Shown: positions 6,001 through 12,000 of the stretch, in pieces
How the letters are laid out: each line of letters starts with the position of its first letter
Numbering within the stretch: position 1 is the stretch's first letter
Source: a virus
Lineage: Duplodnaviria > Heunggongvirae > Uroviricota > Caudoviricetes
IMG/VR virus record: IMGVR_UViG_2698536618_000023
Direction: 5' to 3' (one strand)
Length of the DNA: 17,568 nt
Program-made: the position numbers

Positions 6001-9000
6001 TGATGCGCTGATGTACTTGCTGAAAAGGAATCGTTCCAGAAATGTATCTACGCAATATCCTGAACACGTTACCCAAAATGCCTGTTCCAGAATGATACTC
6101 ACCTATAAATAACCGTCAATATGACGCTCAAGTACTTTCTGTGAGATAATGCAGCGAATTGATACTGACAATTCAACGTCCGTCATCGCTCCCCCAATGT
6201 GTTGAGGTTAGGTAGAAATGATAACAAATACACCACTCCTGCCCCTGTAACCTCCCCTTTTTTATACGCTCATTTTTGCGCACTTTTTCGATCATTACGT
6301 ATCGGTTTCGTTTTGCGCTTCCTGTTGCGTTTCGTTTTTGAGAAAAATGCGCAGTTTTTTGCGCACTTTTTGAGGTGTCTATCCCCCTGCAAGCCGCGTC
6401 ATATCTGGCTTTGCTCTGTTTGTCTGTGTGATCGATTTTGTGATCAGTTTTATGATCGATTTGCGCACTTTTTTGCGCATTTTTTCAGGGATTTTTCACC
6501 CCATCGAAGAGGCTTCTAAGGGGCTGTGAAGTGGGTAGCATTTTGCTGTGATGGAAGGACTACCGCTACTGTCTGATAATGGTGACGGAGGCCGCTATGT
6601 TCGGCTCTGATTGCAGCCTGCCGTATATTCACCAATTTACCTGGCTGTTATTTCCATAACCCGTAATGTCGCCGATCCCGTCTGATTCCCATATCGTCAA
6701 CAGTCTTATTTACAGCATCCTGAAGTTCGCAAGGCATATTTCCCGCCGTCTGGCTATATGTTCTCGCTGCGGATCGGTGTGGGCCTCTTTCATTACGTCA
6801 AGCCAACGAGCGGCGGCTCTTCGCCATAGTCCCTGAGATTCCAGTTGTTCGGCTTTTTTATCAGTTATTGTGTCCATATTAACTTCCGTCTCTTCGCCCT
6901 GTTTCACCCCTGTACTTCGTGCCCCGTAAAGGATCTTCTTTTTTCTGGTCAATCCCCATATCTTTAAGCGTTCTGGTCGCTGCTGCCCTGACGGCGCATA
7001 CATGCCCCCACTCTGTTGTTTTTGGTCTGGTGGCTTTTGCCGTGCATTGCGCCCTTCGTTGGGTAATATAGTGCCTCTCTTCATCAGTTTTTGCCTGTCT
7101 GAACAATTCTCCCCAGCGTTCAGCAGCACGCCGCCAGAGGCCGCTATTCTCCAGCGCTTCAGCCTTGTCATCACGTATCATCTGTACCCCGCCGATTCTG
7201 TCCTTTCAAAATTTGTCTTATGGCTTATTGTATGAGGGATTCATCCTACAACAAGAAAGGTCACTATGAGACTGACGCAATACAAAAAAGAGATCCTCAG
7301 TTACTTCACTCCCGACAATCTGGCGTGGGTTACTGCCGAAATTGGCAGTCCGCCGTTTGATGTCTCCGGTGTGGCTTACCTGCTGCATGGTATGGATTCA
7401 TTCAACAGCCGGTATCAGATCGAATCAACAAGGCGCACGCTGGAAGCTATGGTGCGTGATGGTCTTCTTGAGCGGATTAATGTGTATGAGCGTCGTGAGG
7501 GCGCTGGTGATGGTGTTCGTCGAAAGGTGGCGCGTTATGGCCTGCCTGGTCATTCTGTTGTGGTGCGTGACGGTGAGGGCCGGAACGGTGCAATTGACGG
7601 CGAATGTATACGCATCAATGCTACAGATGTGGTGCTGGTGGAGGGGCAATAAAAAACCCTGAAAGATTTCTCCGGGTGCTCCAGTTGCACGTGGCAGAAA
7701 TCCTTCAGGGTCAGCCGTAACGGGCCTCTGTACAGAGGGCTCCAGTTGCCCAGAGATGAGCACCCGCTACAGCCTGTTGTGATAAGCCGCTTTACAGTGA
7801 GCTCCAGTTGCTCAAAGAGGCGCGTTTTTATCACAACCTGACCGCGATAACCCGCTGTACAGAGGGCTTCAATTGCCCAAAGAGGCGCATTCTTATCGCG
7901 GCATGACGAAATCACCGTGATGTTTTCGTCGTTCACTCATCCCGATGTGTGGGAGATGCACCGGAATGAGTGCCGAAAAGCCGCTGGCTGGCTTCATGCA
8001 GTCGGACTCAGTTGCCCGGGGCGAACACCATCAACGGCCTTTTGGTGGTGATTATAGCGAATCGCGATAATTGAGCAAATACGGTGATGAGATGCGTATC
8101 ACGGTAGCGCTAAATCGTCGCCTGCATCACTGAAGCTGTAATTTCTCCATTCATCCTGCGGATTAATCCCCATCTCTTTCAGCGTTCTGTCTGCGGCCTT
8201 TTTCACATCGCCAAAGGTGACCAGTTGTTCAGGCATACGACGGGTTTTACTGATGCATATCGCCCGACGTCTGGCAGCTTCCTCGCGTTCACTGTCCGTT
8301 TCTGCGTGAAGAAGAACCTCAGCCCATCGGGTCGCCGCACGTCGCCATAAACCGCGCTCCTCAAGTTTCTGTGCCACGCTGTCTGTTATCACTCTCACCA
8401 CCTCCCGTATCCTGCCGCTGGATGTTTTGCTGTTTTATCTGCTCCAGCCTCCACATCAGTTGTTCGCTGGCTGCTGCTTTCTCTTTCTCCGTGACTTCGC
8501 CGCAAGGTTGCCCGTTCAGGTCGTACCGTGGGCCACCAGCAATAATCGCCTTAAGGTATCGCGTCGTGTGAAGGTGTGAGGTTAATGCGCCACGTAATAC
8601 GCCATGACCAATCGCCAGTTCCCGCGCCTTCGCGTCCTGCAACATATCGTGTATCACGCCAGCCTTAAGGGGTTTTATATTCTCTGCCCCAAACAGTTCA
8701 GGCCAGTACTCAGCCAGTCGGTTTATCCTCCTGCGGTTTTTTCGCTGCCGCTTTGTCATGTGCTGCCACGGTATGCGCCGTGATGGTTTACGTGTGGTCT
8801 GGTCCTGTTGTGTGGTCTGCTGGTTCATGTTGTGCTTCTGTCATTCAGAACGGAATATCGTCAGAGAACGGGTCATCACCTCCCGCTGGTGGCTGATTTC
8901 CCTGCTGTCCGGTCTGTCGTTTTGCTCTTTCCTGTGCTTCGGTCGCCTTCCCCTGTTGCCCCCGCTTCCCGCCAGGACGCGCCGAACGGGCACTGATTAC

Positions 9001-12000
9001 GCTGTCAGCGATAACCTGCCAGCCCTGCCGTGTTTCTCCGTTCTGTCCGGTCCACTGGCTGATCTGCATGTTACCCGCCACGCTGATAAGGTCGCCTTTT
9101 TCATGTCTCGCCACCGCGTCGGCCTGCTTACCAAATGCCAGGACTGATAGCCATAACGTCGCCTGTCCGTCCTGTGCCTGACTGCATGGCAGTGATACCG
9201 CCATACGCGCCAGCGTCATCGCTGTTCCCTTGCTGGTCTGTTTTACCTGCGGGTCGTCCACCAGCCGCCCGTAAGCTGCAATTTGTGCTGTCATGGTCTG
9301 CGCTCCTTGTTCCGGTACTCCTGGATAATCCCCATTGTCATATCGAATAAATCACATGCCGCTTTTTCTGCATCTTCCGCTTTCAGGTCATACAGCGTCA
9401 TGAAATGGTGAGCGATTGCCCGTGCGGATCTTTTGCTGATCCCTGTTCGGTTAAATCGATGGCGTGTGAGTGTGATTTTTTAGCGTGTTTCTCTGTCATA
9501 AAATTTTTCTCAGAGGAATAAATAAAAATTTATACCCAAAAGGTGTTCAACTGTTCACCTTTTGCTATTTCACCTTTAGATTCATAAAGTTAAGGGGTGA
9601 ACACTTTTTGTAAAGGTGTTCACCAACTGTTCACCCTGTTCACCCGTGACTGTTCAAAAATCATACAAAAAGGTGAACAGGTGAATACTTTGGTGAATAG
9701 TTTTACAAAAGTGTTCACCCATTAACATATTGATACTAAATACATTTATTGCAGGGTGAACAGTGGTGAACAGTTTTTCTATAACTTAATTTTTATCACC
9801 CTCATTTTTCACTGGTGCACATGACGGCAGCCAGTCCTCAGACTCATCCGTCAGTATCACGTTTGATCGCACACCTTCTTTAGTTCTCTTTTTCATATAC
9901 TCCCTGCCATATTCCGCCATTGCGCCTGGCATATCTGCACCGAAGCGCGTCAGTGTTACGGGCTTACTGAAACCGTGCGCCCTCATATACGAGAGATAGG
10001 CGTGATAAAGATAACGGCGTGGACTGAAAGGAATAATCTCAGCATTACCGACTAACAGGCCGTCACACATTACCGACGACATGAGATAGCCGCAGAAGTC
10101 CACCAGCGAATCCCCCTCACGCTTTATCGCCAGTGCTTCTTCTGATTTCTGCTGCTCATATAAAAGGCGTCTGGCTTCGTCCTGATCAGCAAACCGTGTA
10201 AGCAGATGACGAATCACTACAGCAAGCTCACCTTCTATTTTTTCCGGCAGCATCGGATCGCGTTCGTTTTCCGGTACAACCTCCGAAAAATTGAATATCA
10301 CACGACGACGTGAGATCCCCCCGCTGCGGTCACTGAATGACATGGCGCTGTTGTTAACCGCCAGCACAACCGCCGGAATACGCGTTGAGTATGGCGCTTT
10401 GTGTTTCGGGTCAATTGCCACCTTGTCACCGCCCGTAATGGCCTTTATCCCTGCACCATCACCCGCGTAGCGGGTCATATCCGGCAGAATAATCAGTGAA
10501 AAGCCAACCACTAATGCACGTTCCCTTGCATCCTCCAGTGCCTTCATGCTTGCCGATACCGTGTTGGCCTTACCTGCCAGCATGGTACAAATCTCTGCCA
10601 TAACACTTTTACCGCTTCCACCAGGACCTGTTACCTCAATGAATAACTGCCAGTCGTACCGGTTCGCCAGCACCATAAATAACGCTGCCAGAACGCGATC
10701 TGCCTTGCGGTCATTCTCAGCCACCGAACGGCGCAACCATTTCCAGAAATTCGGCGCATGTGTTGCCAGCGTTTCACCCTCTGCTGGTGGGGTGAACGGT
10801 AATTCACTGGCAATTAACAGCCAGTCATTTTTATCGTGTTCACGGAAATCACCTGTACGGGTATCAAATACCCCGTTACTGAATCCAATCAGGTTGCGGG
10901 CGGTATTCCCCATTACGGGTAAACTTAACTTCATGGTATCAACCGCCGATTTTATGGCGTTTTGTGAATAGCAGATATCTTCGTCAATGAAGATTTGCGC
11001 CATTGTGCGCTGTAGCTCTTTATCCTGTACGGGAACCCATACAACACTGTTGTAATAATGCACTGTGTCAGAGTCGGCGTTTATTGCCAGTTCGCCGCCA
11101 TAATGTGCCAGAAGAACTTCGCCGCGCTGGCTTGCCCCCATCTGGTTTAGCGCCAGTGATGTGGCATCATCACCTTTTCCCCGCTCTTTTTTCTTTACAG
11201 GCAGCTCAATAACCAGCCCGTCAGAAATGTTTTTGCGCTCAGTCTCCAGATAGTTACGCCAGTTCTGCCGCTCGTTATGGTGCATACCTTCGGGGTAATA
11301 GTCTGCGTCCTGTACGCCTGCCGCCGCCAGCTTCTGACCTATGCCTTTGACCATCACCTGATCGAGGTGTCCGGCCTTGTATATACGCGCTGATTTGCGC
11401 CCGTCGGGTACAATTTGCAGATTGCCAATATCTTTAAGTTGCTCATCAGCCAGCACGACGGGCGGTATATTATCTCCGGCAAGTTTTCCGTCCTGCTCCA
11501 GCCACTGTTTCGCGTGCGCCCACGCATCACTGCCAGCGAAAATAATCACTTCCGTATCGGCGTGCTTTTTCCCTCGAGGCTGTTTTTTTAAGTTCGGTGC
11601 GCTTTTCATTTCTTACCTCTGCTGATCATCGTCATGTGGCTACCGTATTCATTGCGGTAAATATCCCCGCACATAAATTCGGGGTGAGTTTTGCTACTGG
11701 CAGTTAAGCCAGTATTTTTTGATGCTATTGAATTAATCTCCTGAAGGAGTCGTCTTAATATTTATTTCCCGTTTATTTTTAGCCGTTATTGTTCGCCGCG
11801 TTTTTCTTCCTCCGTCATTAACCACACCGCCACATTGCTGGAAAGTTGTTTGATAAGTCCTGCAATAACAGAAAGGTCATGGTCGTCTATTTCTTCGTGG
11901 TTGCGTTCAATCATGCGGCTAATTACTTCGACCTGTTGCGCTTGCAGTGAGGCTTCTGCCAGTGTTATTTGCTGCATTACTGCACCCCCTTAATTTCATG

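What the first reader, a model, noticed from the sequence alone, without database searches (positions are those of the whole stretch)
8361..9294. ssb and ProQ/FinO-like chaperone directly downstream of the satellite origin
An SSB with the canonical DDIPF tail and a FinO-domain RNA chaperone form a co-directional pair right after the iteron origin and 16 bp apart. A dedicated RNA chaperone next to an RNA-rich, repeat-bearing regulatory region (see 12427-13500) suggests the island runs its own antisense-RNA regulation.
Basis: inference. Interest (0 to 1): 0.4.

Follow-up and report, generated by a model that had tools for sequence, protein, structure and literature searches.

The report
Satellite island ssb–FinO–PerC operon
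A phage-satellite island of Shiga-toxin E. coli carries, just after its replication origin, real genes for a single-strand DNA-binding protein and a FinO-type RNA chaperone; the chaperone is not linked to the island's known antisense RNAs but to a PerC regulator gene and to five RNA-like hairpins copied from Shiga-toxin phages.

Summary
On the minus strand, ssb (8845-9294, ends DDIPF) and a FinO/ProQ-domain gene (8361-8828) lie 16 nt apart. They start about 250 nt after a cluster of 12 P4-type iterons (GGTGAACA) that follows a P4-alpha-like replicase gene. The island is a PICI-type satellite found in STEC.

The "RNA-rich" region is a known module, two C4 antisense RNAs plus two IsrK-like RNAs, about 3.7 kb away. 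Only 9 of 63 related FinO-bearing islands have it.

What travels with the FinO gene:
- A replicase gene upstream, in 77 of 77 loci.
- A PerC-family gene overlapping its 3' end, in 63 of 87 loci.
- ssb, in only 39 of 80 loci.

In this short-type subfamily (116 of 5426 complete E. coli genomes), an array of five about 60-nt hairpins (7655-8042) always follows perC. Two of them look like terminators. Their nearest relatives are allelic hairpins inside the giant gene of short-tailed Stx phages.

My best reading is an ssb-finO-perC operon whose chaperone binds terminator-type hairpin RNAs, possibly this array. The ligand is inferred, not shown. This is a new member of a known protein family in an unstudied context.

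The parts
9786..11609 (-). Replicase: D5_N / DUF5906 (SF3 helicase) / Pox_D5 protein, 607 aa. Residues 122-597 are 49% identical to P4 alpha residues 301-771 (helicase plus origin-binding part).
9544..9772 (.). Iteron cluster: 12 copies of GGTGAACA/TGTTCACC in two opposed sets around an AT-rich centre (about 9645-9671). Same octamer and same position (just 3' of the replicase gene) as P4 crr. This is the PICI-type origin layout.
   Evidence: PMC6092414 for the PICI origin layout
9291..9401 (-). 36-codon ORF whose stop overlaps the ssb start (ATGA). Possible leader or coupled small gene, unverified.
   Evidence: read from the sequence
8845..9294 (-). ssb: OB-fold SSB with a Gly/Gln-rich linker and an acidic DDIPF tip.
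8361..8828 (-). FinO/ProQ-domain protein, 155 aa: basic N-terminal stretch (residues 13-37), FinO domain (about 25-140), low-confidence tail. A 138-aa allele with an earlier stop is common in other strains.
8099..8401 (-). PerC-family gene (PF06069, E 7e-29). Likely start is GTG 8392, behind GGGAGG at 8401-8406, which overlaps the FinO ORF by 32 nt.
7655..8042 (-). Array of five long hairpins: U1 7976-8042 (followed by UUUUCGG), U2 7841-7902, U3 7776-7837, U4 7713-7774, U5 7655-7712 (followed by UUUUUUAUU). Each has an apical GNGC-AAYUGRA-GCNC stem-loop, with different basal stems in each unit. Homologous to allelic hairpins in the giant gene of Stx phages.
12531..13278 (-). Two C4 antisense RNAs (12531-12619, 13012-13099) and two IsrK-like RNAs ending in terminators (12645-12722, 13201-13278). 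This is the 'RNA-rich region' of the finding. Part of the island, but not specifically associated with the FinO gene.

Best explanation
SHOWN:
- The window holds a PICI-type phage satellite of Shiga-toxin-producing E. coli. Its gene order is P4-type integrase, AlpA, Rha, AntA/Icd with C4/IsrK RNAs, a P4-alpha-like replicase and P4-type iterons. It has no sid, psu or delta genes and no capsid genes.
- Directly after the iterons, three tightly packed co-directional genes follow: ssb, a FinO-domain gene and a PerC-family gene. The spacer is 16 nt and the FinO and PerC ORFs overlap by 32 nt.
- The FinO-like protein has the FinO fold. [quoted passage not shown]
- It belongs to a clade found on chromosomal islands. 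No close relatives were found on plasmids or in phage genomes.
- The gene always follows the island replicase, usually precedes perC, and is accompanied by ssb in only half of the islands.

INFERRED:
- The three genes form one operon that is switched on together with island replication.
- SSB coats the DNA unwound by the island helicase. Its DDIPF tip recruits host replication proteins.
- The FinO-like protein binds the base and 3' U-tail of terminator-type hairpins, as FinO, ProQ and RocC do. By doing so it stabilises RNAs or promotes RNA pairing.
- Its most likely ligands in this island are not the distant C4/IsrK RNAs. They are the hairpins at the 3' end of its own operon. U1 and U5 are hairpins followed by U-tracts.
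- These hairpins are copies of an antisense-oriented, terminator-like hairpin inside the giant gene of Stx phages. The chaperone may therefore also engage helper-phage RNA.
For: Identity of the genes.

FinO fold: AlphaFold2 mean pLDDT 77.7, with the core above 80. The best Foldseek hits are RocC 7rgt/7rgu (E 1e-7, target TM-score 0.84), FinO 1dvo and NMB1681.

RNA-binding residues: ProQ R58, Y70 and R80 are essential for RNA binding (PMC10578477). They align to R79, Y91 and R101 here. Y91 and R101 are invariant and R79 nearly invariant in 18 diverse homologues.

Island clade: the nearest plasmid proteins are at most 34% identical, apart from one 4.8-Mb record filed among the plasmids. The nearest phage protein is Sodalis phiSG1, 47% identical over half the length.

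Synteny over 88 loci: replicase upstream 77/77, ssb 39/80, PerC 63/87, C4 9/63.

Satellite identity: and the P4 iterons. PerC genes are described as common in Gram-negative PICIs (PMC11773190; PMC6092414).

Hairpin array:
- The RNA fold of 8100->7640 (minus strand) is -191.7 kcal/mol, z = -7.1 against shuffles.
- The strongest terminator-like hairpins on the operon strand are U1 (-24 kcal/mol) and U5 (-30 kcal/mol).
- Stems show compensating changes between units and between alleles.
- The operon strand folds better than its complement, summed -559 against -478 kcal/mol, with 51 against 26 G.U pairs.
- 116 genomes carry the short-type FinO gene, and 116 carry array, perC and finO contiguously.
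- The array stays with ssb-finO-perC when the replicase type changes and when orf128 is absent.
- A covariance model of the unit finds it only in short-type islands among 90 sources.

FinO-domain proteins bind terminator hairpins with 3' tails (PMC9977716; PMC9674577 abstract).
Against: - There are no expression, 3'-end or binding data, so the operon and the ligand are both inferences.
- The array occurs only with the short-type subfamily. It cannot explain why about 80 other islands keep a FinO gene at the same place.
- U2-U4 have no U-tail.
- The conserved 7-nt loop points to a sequence-specific reader. Known FinO domains read the hairpin base and the 3' tail, not the loop.
- The strand preference rests on few independent alleles (L093 and L010 are nearly identical), and U3 prefers the other strand.
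- The array could act as DNA, for example as a mimic of a helper-phage cis site, without involving the chaperone.
- The constant position after the origin fits a replication-linked role equally well.
Confidence: 0.45

Rival explanations
1. First reader's model. The FinO-like protein is the dedicated chaperone of the island's own C4/IsrK antisense system. It would stabilise C4 or IsrK, or promote their pairing with the icd/ant leader, and so control island induction.
For: C4 (twice) and IsrK-like RNAs (twice) are really present. The IsrK-like RNAs end in canonical terminator hairpins with U-tracts, which is the ligand type of FinO domains. They sit on the same element and the same strand as the FinO gene.
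Against: Only 9 of 63 FinO-bearing islands have C4/IsrK. The module is about 3.7 kb away, beyond the replicase gene. No homologue of this FinO protein appeared in the phage collection other than in Sodalis phiSG1 and a Cronobacter phage. From my own knowledge, not tested here: the same module works in P1 and P7.
Confidence: 0.12
2. Replication-control model. Like the plasmid FinO-domain proteins FopA (Inc/repZ) and PcnR, the protein assists an unrecognised antisense RNA that sets replicase expression or copy number. Alternatively it binds structured RNA or ssDNA at the origin together with SSB.
For: The gene lies directly after the replicase gene and origin in 77 of 77 loci, whatever the replicase type (D5_N or DUF927). 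ssb is its neighbour in half of them. FopA and PcnR are precedents (PMC9977716; PMC8053102 abstract).
Against: No conserved antisense promoter-plus-terminator pair was found around the replicase 3' end or the origin. Rfam finds nothing real there; the microRNA hits are artefacts of the inverted iterons. ssb is dispensable for the association.
Confidence: 0.15
3. Cargo model. FinO-like and PerC are accessory genes aimed at the host, for example at virulence or LEE regulation or at the host sRNA network, rather than at the island or its helper.
For: The two genes overlap and travel together (63 of 87). They open the accessory half of the island. PICI PerC homologues can activate or silence LEE (PMC11773190; PMC6092414). 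Chromosomal ProQ acts globally.
Against: Some PICI PerC homologues have no effect on LEE. The FinO/PerC pair also occurs in Citrobacter, Salmonella and Serratia islands; from my own knowledge, these hosts lack LEE. No host target can be named.
Confidence: 0.2
4. The hairpin array is a DNA-level element unrelated to the chaperone. It would be a set of mimics of a cis-acting site of Stx phages, for packaging, recombination or replication. The island could then be handled by several helper variants.
For: Each unit matches a different allele of one site in the Stx-phage giant gene. Phage alleles keep the hairpin through compensating changes inside a coding region. All 8 array-bearing genomes listed have 1-2 further matching places, which I take to be resident Stx-type prophages, though those extra places were not inspected.
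Against: G.U pairs and folding energies favour one strand, which points to a single-stranded form. On that strand every phage allele and U1/U5 are followed by U-rich tails, like terminators. No packaging function is known for that phage site; the literature searches found nothing.
Confidence: 0.3

Closest known systems
FinO of F-like plasmids (FinOP system: FinO, FinP antisense RNA, traJ mRNA)
   Same: Same domain (PF04352; 1dvo phmmer E 3e-10; Foldseek E 1.6e-6). A small protein with a basic N-terminal extension, encoded on a mobile element. The expected ligand is a stem-loop with a 3' tail.
   Different: About 30% identity. It is encoded on a chromosomal satellite rather than a plasmid. No cis-antisense partner RNA has been identified. 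It is fused into an operon with perC and often ssb.
FopA (IncI1 pCol1B9) and PcnR (IncI2): FinO-domain proteins controlling plasmid replication through antisense RNAs
   Same: FinO-domain protein encoded next to the replication module of a mobile element.
   Different: No Inc/RNAI-like antisense RNA was found near the island replicase. I did not compare sequences with FopA or PcnR directly; plasmid hits in general were at most 34% identical.
ProQ (enterobacterial chromosome) and RocC (Legionella)
   Same: Best sequence match (ProQ NTD 5nb9, E 5e-13) and best structural match (RocC 7rgt/7rgu, including the complex with a terminator). The R58/Y70/R80 equivalents are conserved.
   Different: It lacks the ProQ linker and the Tudor-like C-terminal domain. 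It is 155 aa long. It is island-borne and present in only 116 of 5426 complete E. coli genomes (short type).
E. coli PICIs (EcCICFT073, EcCIEDL933, EcCIMP1)
   Same: int, alpA, antirepressor/Ash, primase, an origin with two iteron sets around an AT-rich centre, and a PerC homologue among the accessory genes.
   Different: The papers read here do not mention an ssb or FinO gene or the hairpin array. Only a 2026 Enterobacter survey lists 'ProQ' as a PICI accessory gene. Induction by a helper was not tested for this island.
Satellite phage P4
   Same: The integrase is 38% identical and the alpha helicase/origin-binding part 49% identical. It has a vis/AlpA homologue and the identical type-1 iteron GGTGAACA, placed just 3' of the replicase gene as in P4 crr.
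   Different: No sid, delta, psu, epsilon, cnr, gop or beta. The N-terminal primase domain of alpha is replaced. P4 has no ssb, FinO or perC.
P1/P7 immI C4 RNA and Salmonella Gifsy-1 IsrK
   Same: Rfam matches above or at the gathering score, lying upstream of Icd-like and antirepressor coding sequence.
   Different: The module is duplicated in tandem here. It belongs to the island's regulatory end, not to the ssb-finO module.

Membership tests
FinO/ProQ family (PF04352) | Sequence match to the FinO domain above the curated threshold | tested here: met
   86.1 bits against a cut-off of 27, E 2e-24, residues 31-135. Below the equivalog cut-offs for ProQ proper (56.5 against 127 bits) and FinO proper (56.3 against 136 bits). 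It is therefore a family member but neither ProQ nor FinO itself.
FinO/ProQ family (PF04352) | FinO-domain fold | tested here: met
   AF2 model pLDDT 77.7 (core above 80). Foldseek: RocC E 1.3e-7 with target TM-score 0.84, FinO 1dvo E 1.6e-6, NMB1681 E 9e-6.
FinO/ProQ family (PF04352) | Concave-face RNA-binding residues (ProQ R58, Y70, R80) | tested here: met
   They align to R79, Y91 and R101. Y91 and R101 are invariant and R79 is at least 90% conserved in 18 homologues. Their essential role is shown in PMC10578477.
FinO/ProQ family (PF04352) | Binds a terminator-type hairpin with a 3' tail; RNA chaperone activity | not testable with these tools
   Needs EMSA, CLIP or strand-exchange assays.
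FinOP-type two-component system (chaperone plus cognate antisense RNA and target) | An identified cognate antisense/sense RNA pair on the same element | tested here: inconclusive
   C4/IsrK are present but do not co-vary with the gene (9 of 63). The hairpin array co-occurs in 116 of 116 genomes, but neither its transcription nor a target has been shown.
Bacterial SSB (PF00436 / TIGR00621) | OB-fold ssDNA-binding domain | tested here: met
   PF00436 60.2 bits (cut-off 26). TIGR00621 72.8 bits (cut-off 53.95). PDB hits to SSBs down to E 6e-12.
Bacterial SSB (PF00436 / TIGR00621) | Acidic C-terminal tip (D-D-I-P-F) after a flexible Gly/Gln/Pro-rich linker | tested here: met
   The sequence ends ...QQGNQPPAGGDDPFSDDIPF.
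PICI (phage-inducible chromosomal island, Gram-negative type) | int, alpA, primase/replicase and an iteron origin with an AT-rich centre; about 10-15 kb; no structural or lysis genes; tRNA-adjacent | tested here: met
   The closest E. coli copy sits at tRNA-Gly. The feature list comes from PMC6092414.
PICI (phage-inducible chromosomal island, Gram-negative type) | Induction, replication and packaging by a helper phage | not testable with these tools
   The only hint is the homology of the hairpin array to Stx phages.
P4-like satellite | sid, delta and psu capsid-size and helper-control genes | tested here: not met
   tblastn of all P4 proteins against the window hits only int, the alpha C-terminal part, the cI-ORF region and vis.
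P4-type replicon | Type-1 iterons TGTTCACC bound by the alpha C-terminal domain | tested here: met
   The same octamer is annotated in P4 crr and ori. The alpha C-terminal part is 49% identical. Binding itself was not tested.
C4 antisense RNA (RF01695) / IsrK (RF01394) | Covariance-model score at or above the Rfam gathering score | tested here: met
   C4: 74.1 and 70.3 bits (gathering 45). IsrK: 50.0 bits (gathering 50); the second copy, at 37.6 bits, is below threshold.

The most novel reading that the evidence does not exclude
The short-type FinO-like chaperone and the five-hairpin array form a satellite-encoded RNA device aimed at Stx helper phages. Each array unit would be a captured allele of an antisense, terminator-like hairpin embedded in the phages' giant (about 2790-aa) gene. 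The chaperone would bind these hairpin RNAs and their phage counterparts, either to sense the helper or to tune its expression. The array would then be a small library matched to the diversity of helpers.
Probability: 0.15. Interest if true: 0.8.

Novelty: new member of a known kind. Interest (0 to 1): 0.42.

Why it matters
FinO-domain proteins are known as specialists on plasmids (FinO, FopA, PcnR) and as global chaperones on chromosomes (ProQ, RocC). A clade fixed at one position of phage satellites, coupled to a PerC-family regulator, would extend the family to satellite-helper biology. It also offers a small, tractable system: one protein on one island.

The adjoining hairpin array may matter more. 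It links an STEC satellite to Shiga-toxin phages through a structured element that is conserved by compensating changes inside a phage coding region. If the array is functional, it points to an unrecognised cis element or antisense RNA in Stx phages. It would also show a way for a satellite to recognise or interfere with several helper variants, which bears on Stx-phage production in STEC.

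Tried and rejected
1. C4/IsrK as the cognate RNAs. I built covariance models from the window and related copies and searched 89 sources. Hits appeared in only 10 of them. Rfam runs on 16 related loci found C4 in only three of them. I rejected C4/IsrK as a specific partner.

2. A scan for terminator-like hairpins on both strands around the FinO gene in all loci, to find a conserved antisense RNA. It gave many weak candidates. One recurrent antisense hairpin lies inside the 5' coding region of long-type genes and cannot be separated from coding conservation. I did not pursue it.

3. A complementary UCCAGUU kissing loop elsewhere in the window. None was found on the operon strand.

4. A regex search for array units in other islands gave hits at +1354 and +3190. 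These turned out to be an unrelated conserved sequence. The covariance model confirmed that the units are absent there.

6. Rfam microRNA hits at 9467-9785 are artefacts of the inverted iterons.

7. orf128 (7266-7652) as a possible Rpp-like or array-binding protein. It has no Pfam, NCBIfam, PHROG or PDB match, and it is absent in an array-bearing island.

8. A promoter for an antisense RNA in the phage giant gene. The scan found nothing convincing.

9. Literature searches for a study of island-borne FinO proteins, or of the Stx-phage site, found none in the held library.

Full report
**Observation.** The interval 8361-9294 holds two minus-strand ORFs.

- The ORF at 8845-9294 encodes a 149-aa SSB. 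Scores are PF00436 E 2.3e-16, TIGR00621 72.8 bits against a cut-off of 53.95, and PHROG 44 E 4e-41. It has many PDB SSB relatives. A Gly/Gln/Pro-rich linker leads to the terminal motif SDDIPF.
- The ORF at 8361-8828 encodes a 155-aa FinO/ProQ-domain protein. PF04352 scores 86 bits against a cut-off of 27, E 2e-24. The nearest solved relatives are ProQ-NTD, RocC and FinO.
- The spacer between them is 16 nt.

An AlphaFold2 model built on 18 homologues has a confident core (mean pLDDT 77.7). It superposes on RocC, including RocC bound to a terminator, with a target TM-score of 0.84, and also on FinO and NMB1681.

The three residues shown to be indispensable for RNA binding in E. coli ProQ are R58, Y70 and R80 (PMC10578477). 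They align to R79, Y91 and R101 here and are conserved across the island clade.

The protein scores far below the NCBIfam equivalog cut-offs for ProQ and for FinO. It is a family member but neither of those proteins.

**The origin and the element.** Upstream on the same strand lies a 607-aa D5_N/SF3-helicase/Pox_D5 replicase (9786-11609).

Between it and ssb there are 12 copies of GGTGAACA in two opposed sets around an AT-rich centre (9544-9772). The whole window holds 29 matches, against 14 +/- 3.7 in shuffles.

This octamer is exactly the annotated 'ori type 1 repeat' of satellite phage P4. P4's crr lies in the same place, just 3' of the alpha gene. The replicase is 49% identical to the helicase/origin-binding part of P4 alpha.

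The rest of the element comprises a P4-type integrase, AlpA, Rha, an AntA/Ash/Icd-like ORF and small ORFs. There are no sid, delta, psu or capsid genes.

That is the architecture described for Gram-negative PICIs, including the two iteron sets around an AT-rich region and PerC homologues as frequent cargo (PMC6092414; PMC11773190).

Near-identical copies occur in STEC strains (O145:H28, O157:H7, bovine isolates). In the copy examined, the island sits at tRNA-Gly beside ETT2. NCBI already annotates the three genes there as SSB, ProQ/FINO and PerC.

**The pair is a trio.** A PerC-family gene (8099-8392/8401; PF06069 E 7e-29) follows. Its Shine-Dalgarno sequence and start codon lie inside the 3' end of the FinO ORF, giving a 32-nt overlap.

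I compared 88 related loci from exact-protein look-ups, IMG/VR and genome collections.

| Feature next to the FinO gene | Loci with the feature / loci with enough sequence |
|---|---|
| Replicase gene upstream on the same strand (D5_N or DUF927 type) | 77 / 77 |
| PerC gene directly downstream | 63 / 87 |
| ssb between replicase and FinO gene | 39 / 80 |
| C4 RNA | 9 / 63 |

The stable association is therefore replicase/origin, then FinO, then PerC. ssb is an optional insert.

The clade is island-borne. The closest plasmid proteins are at most 34% identical, mostly true FinO. The phage collection holds only Sodalis phiSG1 and one Cronobacter phage as relatives.

Rfam finds two C4 antisense RNAs and two IsrK-like RNAs on the minus strand at 12531-13278. 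This is the known P1/P7 immI-type module, sitting in front of Icd-like and antirepressor coding sequence.

The IsrK-like RNAs do end in classic terminators, so they are plausible FinO ligands in principle. Two facts speak against a dedicated link. The module lies about 3.7 kb from the FinO gene, beyond the replicase gene. My covariance models and Rfam detect it in only 9 of the 63 FinO-bearing loci that have enough upstream sequence. The gene is kept in islands that have no such RNAs.

**What lies next to the gene instead.** Downstream of perC, on the operon strand, the 461-nt stretch 8100->7640 folds far better than shuffled sequence (-191.7 kcal/mol, z = -7.1).

It consists of five hairpins of about 60 nt, U1 to U5 (7655-8042).
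- Their basal stems differ completely in sequence.
- Their tips share a 4-bp stem and a 7-nt loop, GNGC-AAYUGRA-GCNC.
- The tip stems show compensating changes between units and between strains: GGGC/GCCC, GAGC/GCUC, GUGC/GCAC, AGGC/GCCU and UGGC/GCCA.
- U1 (-24 kcal/mol, followed by UUUUCGG, 60 nt after the perC stop) and U5 (-30 kcal/mol, followed by UUUUUUAUU) are the strongest terminator-like structures on that strand in the whole neighbourhood.

The operon strand folds better than its complement and carries twice as many G.U pairs. Summed energies are -559 against -478 kcal/mol, and G.U counts are 51 against 26. This favours a single-stranded, strand-specific form.

The array co-occurs with this short-type FinO subfamily. 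The short-type gene is present in 116 complete E. coli genomes, and 116 have array, perC and finO contiguous. The array stays with the module when the replicase type changes and when the convergent orf128 is missing. A covariance model of the unit finds it in no long-type island. No Rfam family matches it.

**Link to Stx phages.** Single units have close homologues (88-95% identity over 38-64 nt) inside the roughly 8.4-kb 'LPD38/LPD5' gene of short-tailed Stx-converting phages (VT2-Sakai H0150, the phi24B vb_24B_48 type; 186 phage records). The homologue always sits about 5.5 kb into the gene.

- The phage site exists in at least four alleles. Their stems differ by compensating changes although the site is coding; the tip encodes G-L-Q-L-P.
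- Island units correspond to different alleles. U1 resembles the allele of L090, U2 that of SH2026Stx1/VT2-Sakai, the U4 tip that of Ss-VASD, and U5 that of the O145 phage Lys12581Vzw.
- The window's plus strand equals the phage coding strand.
- On the complementary strand, which is the island's operon strand, every phage allele is a hairpin followed by a U-rich tail. Two alleles fold clearly better on that strand.

This suggests an antisense, terminator-like element in the phage, with copies at the end of the island operon. I found no literature on it and no convincing antisense promoter.

**Mechanism.**

*Shown:* the identity and fold of the two proteins, the P4-type iterons, the PICI architecture, the synteny statistics, the presence and limited distribution of C4/IsrK, and the structure, distribution and phage homology of the hairpin array.

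*Inferred:*
- ssb, finO and perC form one operon, probably expressed with island replication.
- SSB serves island replication and recruits host factors through its tip.
- The FinO-like protein binds terminator-type hairpins with 3' U-tails. In this island the best candidates are U1 and U5 at the end of its own transcript, and possibly the homologous phage RNA.

*Rivals:*
- A FopA/PcnR-like role in replication control.
- A host-directed cargo role together with PerC.
- For the array, a DNA-level mimic of a helper cis site that has nothing to do with the chaperone.

None of these can be excluded without expression and binding data.

**Comparison and novelty.** The protein is a new, uncharacterised member of the FinO/ProQ family. 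It defines a satellite-borne clade with fixed synteny. Only genome annotation and one survey table mention such genes.

SSB genes on mobile elements and iteron origins 3' of PICI replicases are ordinary.

The part that lies furthest from known systems is the hairpin array and its allelic counterparts inside Stx-phage genes. Its connection with the chaperone is a hypothesis based on adjacency, co-occurrence and ligand type.

Noticed in passing
window 7655-8042 (minus strand); L089 about 5985-6065, L090 about 7000-7070, L091, L094-L097: An array of five structured hairpins lies 3' of perC. Each unit resembles a different allele of one hairpin embedded at a fixed position in the giant LPD38/LPD5 gene of short-tailed Stx phages. 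The phage alleles keep the hairpin by compensating changes inside coding sequence. On the non-coding strand each is followed by a U-rich tail.
   Followed up: partly
window 12766-14289 (507-aa ORF) against 13012-13099 and 13201-13278: One C4 RNA and one IsrK-like RNA lie inside the stretch of this long ORF that matches Pfam Phage_ASH (residues 334-455). P4's 'cI ORF' also hits here. The 'Ash' protein match may therefore be a translation of RNA genes, and the AntA-Ash-Icd fusion ORF is doubtful. The E. coli copy L001 has only one C4/IsrK module and a pseudogenised AntA.
   Followed up: partly
window 8361-8414: The FinO ORF shows a stop-codon polymorphism. It is 155 aa here and in O145:H28 RM12581. 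It is 138 aa in many strains (a stop at the position equivalent to about 8412), which places the stop just before the perC ribosome-binding site. Forms of 148 aa also exist.
   Followed up: partly
window 9786-11609: The replicase shares only the helicase/origin-binding part with P4 alpha. Its first 121 residues have no similarity to P4's N-terminal primase domain, and the protein is 170 aa shorter. Whether it still primes DNA synthesis is open.
   Followed up: no
window 4133-4531 (minus) and 6710-7174 (minus): The accessory half of the element also encodes a lambdoid Q antiterminator (PF06530, E 8e-52) and a second PerC-family ORF. A satellite-borne Q could act on a helper's late promoter.
   Followed up: no
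window 1-3371 and about 4600-6700: The left end holds a KilA-N-like ORF and a 543-aa tyrosine recombinase (1613-3244). It has no counterpart next to the island in the best-matching complete E. coli genomes, which cover only 61-65% of the window, all within 3372-17568. Within that span, a 412-aa Sulf_transp membrane protein (4838-6076) may also lack a counterpart. The window may come from a strain with a different or composite island.
   Followed up: no
window 9291-9401 (minus): A 36-codon ORF has a stop that overlaps the ssb start codon (ATGA). In a related island (L093), two larger genes occupy this place and overlap ssb in the same way.
   Followed up: no
window 9467-9785: Rfam E-value hits to plant and animal microRNA precursors (MIR821, mir-5014 and others) are artefacts of the long inverted iteron structure of the origin.
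   Followed up: yes
L002 3307-3375, L033 2869-2936: Some long-type FinO islands carry the Rfam 'int-alpA RNA' instead of C4/IsrK. The regulatory RNAs of these islands are interchangeable modules.
   Followed up: no
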